Below, in pieces: positions 17,296 to 17,316 of a DNA stretch of 64,000 bases (position 1 is its first letter; every line of letters begins with the position of its first letter). The notes beneath the pieces were generated by a model. It made no database searches and was not told where the DNA came from. It saw only the letters and a list, made by a program, of their open reading frames with translations. Made by a program: the position numbers and the translations under genes. Source of the stretch: Escherichia coli (lineage in GTDB: Bacteria > Pseudomonadota > Gammaproteobacteria > Enterobacterales > Enterobacteriaceae); the NCBI RefSeq assembly GCF_041248615.1, contig NZ_CP158426.1; one strand, 5' to 3'.

Positions 17296-17316
17296 AGAAA
17301 GGAGGTATAATCCGTC
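17296..17316 (+). promoter_or_regulatory. upp promoter -10 element and T8 initially-transcribed tract (UTP-sensitive reiterative transcription site)
   Basis: TATAAT at 17296-17301 followed by GATTTTTTTTG; matches the known upp control mechanism. Confidence 0.6.

What the first reader, a model, noticed from the sequence alone, without database searches (positions are those of the whole stretch)
17296..17316. upp promoter with T8 tract for UTP-sensitive reiterative transcription
TATAAT is followed by GATTTTTTTTG immediately upstream of upp-uraA. This is the arrangement used for pyrimidine-responsive control by transcript slippage, so the regulatory mechanism appears intact in this strain.
Basis: established knowledge. 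Interest (0 to 1): 0.25.

Follow-up and report, generated by a model that had tools for sequence, protein, structure and literature searches.

The report
Known UTP-sensing upp promoter, intact
This is the well-studied Escherichia coli upp promoter, whose run of eight T's lets RNA polymerase sense UTP and shut off uracil salvage when pyrimidines are plentiful; here it is base-for-base the same as in strain K-12, so it is ordinary and already explained.

Summary
The motif is real, but it lies about 11 nt to the right of the stated span. The -10 TATAAT is at 17306-17311, followed by CCGTC. GATTTTTTTTG is at 17317-17327, and the upp ATG is at 17354. The window is E. coli chromosome. From the -10 to the ATG it is identical to K-12 MG1655, where this promoter was characterised experimentally (Tu & Turnbough 1997; Cheng et al. 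2001). Upp and UraA proteins are also identical to K-12.

First, the published mechanism is UTP-sensitive choice between two start sites (G6, A7) coupled to reiterative transcription, not slippage alone.

New context:
- The module TATAAT-N5-GA-T(6-10) is present upstream of upp in 92 of 118 sampled gammaproteobacterial species, including nearly all free-living Enterobacterales sampled.
- In 5,424 complete E. coli genomes the tract is T8 in 90.5%, T7 in 8.1% (including Sanger-era genomes) and T9 in 0.4%.

Verdict: already known, low interest. Nothing about regulation was measured here.

The parts
17284..17289 (+). -35-like hexamer TTGCCG (4 of 6), 16-nt spacer to the -10
   Evidence: Consensus scan. 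The window differs from K-12 at the next base (17290, G versus C).
17306..17311 (+). -10 hexamer TATAAT (perfect consensus)
   Evidence: Invariant in all 92 species that carry the module.
17312..17316 (+). GC-rich discriminator CCGTC (positions 1-5 after the -10)
   Evidence: Conserved as C-C/T-C/G-G/T-C across Enterobacterales.
17317..17318 (+). Alternative start nucleotides G6 (17317) and A7 (17318)
   Evidence: The positions follow from the sequence. Their role as starts comes from Tu & Turnbough 1997, recalled from memory: the paper is not held, and only its title and the ITR sequence are confirmed. The GA dinucleotide is present in 88 of 92 module-bearing species.
17319..17326 (+). T8 tract of the initially transcribed region, the site of UTP-dependent reiterative transcription
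   Evidence: Identical to K-12. T6-T10 in 92 species. T8 in 4909 of 5424 E. coli genomes.
17327..17353 (+). Rest of the 37-nt leader, with Shine-Dalgarno AGGAG at 17342-17346
   Evidence: The leader fold is no better than shuffles, z = +1.2.
17354..17980 (+). upp, uracil phosphoribosyltransferase, 208 aa
   Evidence: NCBIfam NF001097/TIGR01091, E about 1e-90. Identical to the K-12 protein.
17996..18025 (+). Terminator-like hairpin plus a second T8 tract in the upp-uraA spacer
   Evidence: Scan. MFE -15.2 kcal/mol, z = -3.0. The surrounding 90 nt are exact in 5319 of 5426 records.
18066..19355 (+). uraA, uracil permease, 429 aa, the downstream gene of the operon
   Evidence: NCBIfam NF007995, E = 2.7e-245. 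Identical to K-12. The operon is named upp-uraA in PMC7039003.

Best explanation
This is the sigma-70 promoter of the E. coli upp-uraA pyrimidine-salvage operon. RNA polymerase can start at either of two adjacent purines, six or seven bases after the -10 hexamer (G at 17317, A at 17318). When UTP is high, it starts mostly at the A. The short AUUU... transcript slips backwards on the run of eight T:A pairs (17319-17326), U residues are added over and over, and the poly-U products are released without reaching upp. When UTP is low, it starts mostly at the G. Those GAUUUUUUUUG transcripts mostly do not slip and are elongated normally, so upp (and by read-through uraA) is expressed. The promoter itself is thus the UTP sensor and no repressor is needed. 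Shown here: the sequence anatomy, its identity to the characterised K-12 promoter, the gene identities and the evolutionary conservation. Inferred from the literature: the start sites, the slippage and the response to UTP.
For: - Anatomy: -35-like hexamer, 16-nt spacer, perfect -10, CCGTC, then GA + T8 + G.
- The sequence is identical to K-12 MG1655 from the -10 to the ATG.
- The 90-nt core is identical in 4909 of 5424 complete E. coli genomes.
- The downstream genes are upp and uraA and are identical to K-12.
- Literature: PMC7039003 lists the upp-uraA ITR as 5'-GATTTTTTTTG and says that once slippage starts at this class of promoter, synthesis does not return to canonical transcription. PMC12709180 says reiterative initiation at codBA and upp is triggered indirectly, by TSS switching stimulated by excess UTP, and is nonproductive. 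The titles of Tu & Turnbough 1997 and Cheng et al. 2001 state the mechanism and the requirement for a long T:A tract.
- Conservation: in an unbiased sample, one genome per species chosen only by the Upp N-terminus, 92 of 118 loci carry TATAAT-N5-(GA in 88 of 92)-T6-10. The tract ends 25-37 nt before the ATG, while the flanks diverge.
- The composite motif is not expected by chance.
Against: - Nothing in the sequence argues against it.
- Limits: no transcript mapping or expression data exist for this strain.
- The window carries two substitutions relative to K-12 upstream of the -10 (about 17277, and 17290 just after the -35), and their effect on promoter strength is unknown.
- The primary papers could not be read. 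Details such as the G6/A7 naming and the AUUUUn products therefore rest on my memory of their abstracts, plus secondary citations.
- A terminator-like hairpin between upp and uraA means that the extent to which uraA shares this control is not settled here.
Confidence: 0.93

Rival explanations
1. Simple pyrBI-type control. There is one start site, and UTP concentration alone decides whether the nascent transcript slips in the T tract or is extended, with no start-site switching.
For: pyrBI works this way (PMC7039003 and PMC12709180). Natural variants that lack G6 exist: the E. albertii type strain and E. coli O8:H8 16F5M1D1 have TA instead of GA. These would have to rely on something like this mechanism.
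Against: Held papers state explicitly that upp uses TSS switching, and so does the title of the primary paper. The GA dinucleotide that offers two adjacent purine starts is kept in 88 of 92 species.
Confidence: 0.04
2. The U8 run in the mRNA leader acts mainly after transcription. It could be a U-rich translational enhancer (ribosomal protein S1 binding), or it could pair with the purine-rich Shine-Dalgarno region to modulate translation.
For: The predicted MFE structure pairs U3-U10 with CAAAGGAGA around the SD. The tract lies at a fairly fixed distance (25-37 nt) from the ATG in 92 species.
Against: The leader fold is weaker than shuffled controls (z = +1.2, 181 of 200 shuffles fold as well). 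U:A pairing between any U run and any SD is generic. This reading does not explain the invariant spacing from the -10 or the conserved GA. The published genetics attribute regulation to transcription initiation.
Confidence: 0.02
3. The T tract is a chance feature of AT-rich intergenic DNA, or the tail of a terminator for a neighbouring transcript.
For: T8 runs are as frequent in the window as chance predicts, 7 against 6.2 expected.
Against: No hairpin precedes the tract, and the neighbouring gene purM is divergent. The composite motif has a chance expectation of 0.00. It is conserved in 92 species while the flanks drift.
Confidence: 0.01

Closest known systems
E. coli K-12 upp (upp-uraA) promoter: UTP-sensitive start-site selection coupled to UTP-dependent reiterative transcription (Tu & Turnbough 1997; Cheng, Dylla & Turnbough 2001)
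   Same: Identical sequence from the -10 through the start codon. Same genes and same gene order, purN-purM / upp-uraA-hda. Identical Upp and UraA proteins.
   Different: There are only two substitutions upstream of the -10 (about 17277, T versus G; 17290, G versus C), outside the regulatory core. The window's 91-nt haplotype is found in only 172 of 5424 genomes.
E. coli codBA promoter (ITR 5'-ATTTTTTG; Qi & Turnbough 1995)
   Same: Same logic: start-site switching plus nonproductive reiterative transcription in a long T run, controlling a pyrimidine-salvage operon.
   Different: A different locus, a T6 rather than a T8 tract, and different alternative start nucleotides. It is not in this window.
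E. coli pyrBI and carAB P1 promoters (ITRs AATTTG and GTTTGC)
   Same: UTP-dependent reiterative transcription at initiation, with release of poly-U transcripts.
   Different: The T3 tract is short and there is no start-site switching. UTP acts directly on the choice between slipping and extending. pyrBI also has a downstream attenuator, whereas no such structure is predicted in the upp leader.
Bacillus subtilis pyrG (ITR GGGCTC), CTP-sensitive productive reiterative transcription
   Same: The nucleotide pool is sensed by slippage at initiation.
   Different: At pyrG, slippage is productive and works through an antiterminator hairpin. At upp, slipped transcripts are released and are never extended.

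Membership tests
upp/codBA-class promoters (UTP-sensitive start-site switching + nonproductive reiterative transcription) | Sigma-70 promoter whose -10 hexamer is followed at positions 6-7 by two adjacent candidate start purines | tested here: met
   TATAAT 17306-17311, CCGTC, then G 17317 and A 17318.
upp/codBA-class promoters (UTP-sensitive start-site switching + nonproductive reiterative transcription) | Long homopolymeric T run (non-template strand) that begins right after the start nucleotides, within the initially transcribed region | tested here: met
   T8 at 17319-17326, followed by G. This matches the published ITR GATTTTTTTTG (PMC7039003).
upp/codBA-class promoters (UTP-sensitive start-site switching + nonproductive reiterative transcription) | Sequence identity or orthology with the experimentally characterised K-12 upp promoter | tested here: met
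   Identical from the -10 to the ATG, and syntenic.
upp/codBA-class promoters (UTP-sensitive start-site switching + nonproductive reiterative transcription) | Controls a pyrimidine-salvage gene | tested here: met
   Upp (E = 8e-91) and UraA (E = 3e-245) by NCBIfam equivalogs.
upp/codBA-class promoters (UTP-sensitive start-site switching + nonproductive reiterative transcription) | The start site shifts from G6 to A7 as UTP rises, and A7 transcripts become AUUUUn ladders that are released | not testable with these tools
   This needs primer extension, 5'-end sequencing and in vitro transcription. It is known for K-12 only, from the literature.
upp/codBA-class promoters (UTP-sensitive start-site switching + nonproductive reiterative transcription) | upp expression rises on pyrimidine limitation, and this depends on the T tract | not testable with these tools
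   The title of Cheng et al. 2001 states that the long T:A tract is required. The paper itself is not held.
Leader attenuators or riboswitch-like pyrimidine control (pyrBI attenuator, PyrR binding site) | Stable leader hairpin or terminator, or a match to a curated RNA family | tested here: not met
   No Rfam family matches at gathering score anywhere near 17300. The leader fold has z = +1.2 against shuffles. No terminator-like site lies between the promoter and the upp ATG.

The most novel reading that the evidence does not exclude
The tract length and the G6 base are natural tuning knobs. The T7 allele is carried by 8.1% of complete E. coli genomes. It sits on several flanking haplotypes and is present in Sanger-era genomes (S88, UM146, IHE3034) and in the type strain. 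The T7-T10 spread among Enterobacterales species, and the G6-to-T variants (E. albertii type strain, one E. coli O8:H8), may set different dynamic ranges or basal levels of uracil salvage in different lineages. If so, lineages such as the ExPEC strains above would differ heritably in upp regulation, and possibly in fluoropyrimidine activation. The window itself carries the common T8 form, so this does not concern the strain in hand.
Probability: 0.35. Interest if true: 0.3.

Novelty: already known. Interest (0 to 1): 0.12.

Why it matters
For this window it matters little. It confirms that a textbook repressor-free regulatory device is present and unaltered, so upp and uraA can be annotated with their known pyrimidine control.

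The comparative by-products have modest value. They show that the device is a conserved feature of nearly all free-living Enterobacterales sampled and is not peculiar to E. coli. Tract lengths of T7-T9 are all common in nature. E. coli itself is polymorphic (T8/T7), at a rate about five times that of a control T8 tract 700 bp away.

Upp is the enzyme that activates 5-fluorouracil in gut bacteria, so heritable differences in its regulation could be of practical interest. That would need measurement.

Tried and rejected
1. Three megablast censuses with 45-47-nt queries centred on the tract returned nothing, because the low-complexity filter masks the T run and leaves no 28-nt seed. I replaced them with 89-91-nt queries that have clean flanks.

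2. I tried to read the primary papers and reviews (PMC94869, PMC179593, PMC2415746, PMC3078970). None is held. I relied on secondary statements in held papers instead.

3. I considered that the T7 alleles are homopolymer assembly errors. I reject this as the main cause, for four reasons:
- A control T8 tract 700 bp away is exact in 98.0% of records, against 90.5% for the promoter tract.
- In four T7/T6 genomes the other homopolymers of 7 or more bases within 8 kb are unchanged. One of these genomes does have a separate G5-to-G4 change.
- T7 (440 genomes) far outnumbers T9 (21 genomes).
- T7 carriers include Sanger-era finished genomes.
Some individual cases, notably the T9 calls in PacBio O157:H7 assemblies, may still be errors.

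4. I considered a leader RNA structure or attenuator. It is not supported.

5. I looked for supplementary in vivo slippage data for upp in the 2025 NAR paper. None is held.

6. I searched the literature for earlier notice of the natural tract polymorphism. Nothing was found.

Full report
**1. Observation**

The window around the finding reads ...TTGCCG-GCTTGAAGAAAGGAGG-TATAAT-CCGTC-G-A-TTTTTTTT-GTGGCTGCCCCTCAAAGGAGAAAGAGT-ATG. Exact coordinates:

| Element | Coordinates |
|---|---|
| -35-like TTGCCG | 17284-17289 |
| 16-nt spacer | 17290-17305 |
| -10 TATAAT | 17306-17311 |
| CCGTC | 17312-17316 |
| G | 17317 |
| A | 17318 |
| T8 | 17319-17326 |
| G | 17327 |
| AGGAG | 17342-17346 |
| upp ATG | 17354 |

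The motif is therefore real and the coordinates are about 11 nt too far left.

A consensus scan picks this site as one of only two sigma-70-like sites on the + strand of 16900-19500, with 10 of 12 matches. A bare T8 is not remarkable: there are 7 in the window against 6.2 expected. The composite TATAAT-N5-GATTTTTTT occurs once against 0.00 expected.

**2. What surrounds it**

- The ORF that starts at 17354 is uracil phosphoribosyltransferase (NCBIfam equivalogs, E about 1e-90).
- The next gene (18066-19355) is the uracil permease UraA (E = 3e-245).
- purM and purN lie divergently upstream, and hda lies downstream.
- This is the K-12 order purN-purM / upp-uraA-hda.
- The window is E. coli: 5424 of 5426 complete genomes match the 356-nt intergenic query, and the best match is 100% identical.
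- Upp and UraA are identical to the K-12 proteins.

**3. Identity with the characterised promoter**

An alignment with K-12 MG1655 shows no difference from the -10 hexamer to the start codon. The window differs from K-12 only upstream of the -10, at about 17277 and at 17290, the base after the -35 hexamer.

Held literature supports the mechanism:
- It gives the upp-uraA initially transcribed region as 5'-GATTTTTTTTG and says such promoters make long poly-U products that never return to canonical transcription (PMC7039003).
- It says reiterative initiation at codBA and upp is triggered indirectly, through start-site switching stimulated by excess UTP, and is nonproductive (PMC12709180).
- The primary papers (Tu & Turnbough 1997, PMID 9352914; Cheng, Dylla & Turnbough 2001, PMID 11114920) are cited there with titles that state the mechanism. 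They could not be read.

From my memory of their abstracts, the two starts are called G6 and A7, numbered from the -10. This fits the sequence exactly: G is the sixth and A the seventh base after TATAAT. High UTP favours A7 starts, which become AUUUUn and are released. Low UTP favours G6 starts, which are elongated.

**4. Mechanism**

The best-supported mechanism is therefore the published one. The promoter senses UTP through start-site choice coupled to slippage on the T8:A8 tract.
- Shown here: the anatomy, the identity to K-12, the gene content and the conservation.
- Inferred from the literature: the start sites, the slippage and the response.

Its proposed refutation ('start mapping outside the T tract') is mis-framed, because both starts lie just 5' of the tract.

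**5. Comparative evidence (new here)**

I scanned one genome per species for the Upp N-terminus (MKIVEVKHP, as a degenerate DNA pattern), so loci were selected without regard to the promoter. Of 118 loci with enough upstream sequence, 92 carry the module:
- TATAAT is invariant.
- A 5-nt GC-rich spacer follows.
- Next comes GA in 88 of 92 loci.
- The T run is T7 in 42 loci, T8 in 36, T9 in 12, T10 in 1 and T6 in 1.
- The run ends 25-37 nt before the ATG.

The module is present in essentially all sampled free-living Enterobacterales except Pectobacterium and Brenneria. It is absent from Pasteurellaceae, Orbaceae, Thorsellia, Alkalimonas and some endosymbionts.

A column profile over 90 distinct sequences shows near-maximal information from -9 to the end of the GA, and low information in the flanks and the leader. 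This is strong evidence of selection on the whole device. It also shows that T7-T9 are all natural working lengths.

**6. Variation within E. coli (new here)**

| Query (about 90 nt spanning the core) | Exact matches |
|---|---|
| T8 form | 4909 of 5424 genomes (90.5%) |
| T7 form | 440 (8.1%) |
| T9 form | 21 (0.4%) |

About 54 genomes carry other changes. These include a T6 (strain LCP22S3_I2) and a G6-to-T change (O8:H8 16F5M1D1), which is also seen in the E. albertii type strain.

The T7 allele is unlikely to be mainly an assembly artefact:
- A control T8 tract 700 bp away is exact in 98.0% of records.
- The other homopolymers of 7 or more bases are unchanged in four T7/T6 genomes.
- T7 carriers include finished Sanger-era genomes (S88, UM146, IHE3034) and the type strain DSM 30083.
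- T7 sits on at least three flanking haplotypes, which suggests recurrent origin.

The window has the majority T8 form.

**7. Rivals**

- A pyrBI-type mechanism without start switching is contradicted by the literature and by the conserved GA.
- A post-transcriptional role for the U run has no structural support. The leader fold has z = +1.2, and there is no Rfam hit.
- A chance feature or a terminator tail is excluded by context and conservation.

**8. Caveat on uraA**

A terminator-like hairpin lies between upp and uraA: AAAGCCGACT-TTAAG-AGTCGGCTTT followed by T's, at 17996-18025, with MFE -15.2 kcal/mol and z = -3.0. It is almost invariant in E. coli. The literature calls the unit upp-uraA. 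How much uraA transcription passes this hairpin was not determined here.

**9. Verdict**

This is an already-known, well-characterised regulatory element, present here in its canonical form. Interest is low. The only mildly new points are the breadth of conservation and the natural tract-length polymorphism. Neither concerns this strain specifically.

Noticed in passing
E. coli genomes, position equivalent to window 17319-17326 (for example L002, L003, L005, L007-L009): The upp T tract is polymorphic in E. coli: T8 in 4909, T7 in 440 and T9 in 21 of 5424 complete genomes, with T6 seen once (L010). T7 carriers include S88, UM146, IHE3034, APEC O18, NU14 and the type strain DSM 30083. T7 sits on several flanking haplotypes. 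A control T8 tract nearby is about five times less variable.
   Followed up: yes
L012 (E. albertii type strain) and L004 (E. coli O8:H8 16F5M1D1), position equivalent to window 17317: G6 is replaced by T (TATAATCCGTCTATTTTTTT...). This removes the start nucleotide that gives productive transcripts in the K-12 model. How these strains express or regulate upp is unexplained.
   Followed up: partly
L025, L043, L076, L128, L130 (Brenneria and Pectobacterium), the 75 nt upstream of upp: These genera lack the TATAAT-GA-T(n) module. Just upstream of upp they have GC-rich hairpin-like repeats followed by a T5-6 run (GCCGCCGCAAGCGG...AACGCG..GCGTTTTTTGTCC). This could be a different, attenuator-like arrangement or an upstream terminator.
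   Followed up: no
L013, L048, L080, L125 (Orbaceae: Gilliamella, Schmidhempelia, Zophobihabitans), the 60 nt upstream of upp: A conserved inverted repeat CTCAGTGG ... CACTGAGG overlaps the Shine-Dalgarno sequence of upp. This suggests a leader hairpin that sequesters the ribosome-binding site, a different control from that in E. coli.
   Followed up: no
window 17996-18025: A terminator-like hairpin (about 11 bp, MFE -15.2 kcal/mol, z = -3.0) plus a second T8 tract lies in the 85-nt upp-uraA spacer. The surrounding 90 nt are exact in 98% of E. coli records. This implies partial termination or read-through between the two genes of the 'operon'.
   Followed up: partly
window 17297-17316, and the same positions in 90 Enterobacterales loci: Besides the -10, the GA and the T run, two further elements are strongly conserved across species: an A tract plus GCGG just upstream of the -10 (AAAAAGCGG; AAAGGAGG in E. 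coli), and the GC-rich discriminator C-C/T-C/G-G-C. No role is known to me. They could bear on start-site choice or on stringent control.
   Followed up: partly
window 17093-17108 and 40454-40469: PurR-operator-like palindromes lie upstream of purM (AAGCAAACGTTTGCGA) and upstream of purC (ACGCAAACGTGTGCGT). There are 3 matches in the window against 0.49 expected.
   Followed up: partly
window 1-7251: This is the end of a prophage. It holds an Ant-type anti-repressor (866-1591, -), Rfam isrK (1733-1809, -) and C4 antisense RNA (1625-1708, -), an 860-aa tail spike (2345-4927), two holins, an endolysin and a spanin (5344-7141). Homology to the prophage-free strain 2014C-3338 resumes at 7252, within the last 15 nt of guaA, so the element appears to be integrated at the 3' end of guaA.
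   Followed up: partly
window 23383-37238 and 41344-41412: A 13.9-kb block encodes a formate/nitrite-family transporter, a sigma-54 activator with a GAF domain, and hydrogenase-4 / complex-I-like subunits (the hyf-hyfR-focB cluster). It is present here but absent from strain 2014C-3338, the best match over the upp promoter region. Conversely, that strain's vapBC pair is absent here.
   Followed up: partly
window 17290 and about 17277; window 20176: Relative to K-12, the window has G for C at the first spacer base after the -35 hexamer, and T for G about 13 nt further upstream. The 91-nt haplotype is shared by only 172 of 5424 genomes. The window also lacks a 32-nt REP-like segment that K-12 and others have between hda and yfgD/arsC.
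   Followed up: no
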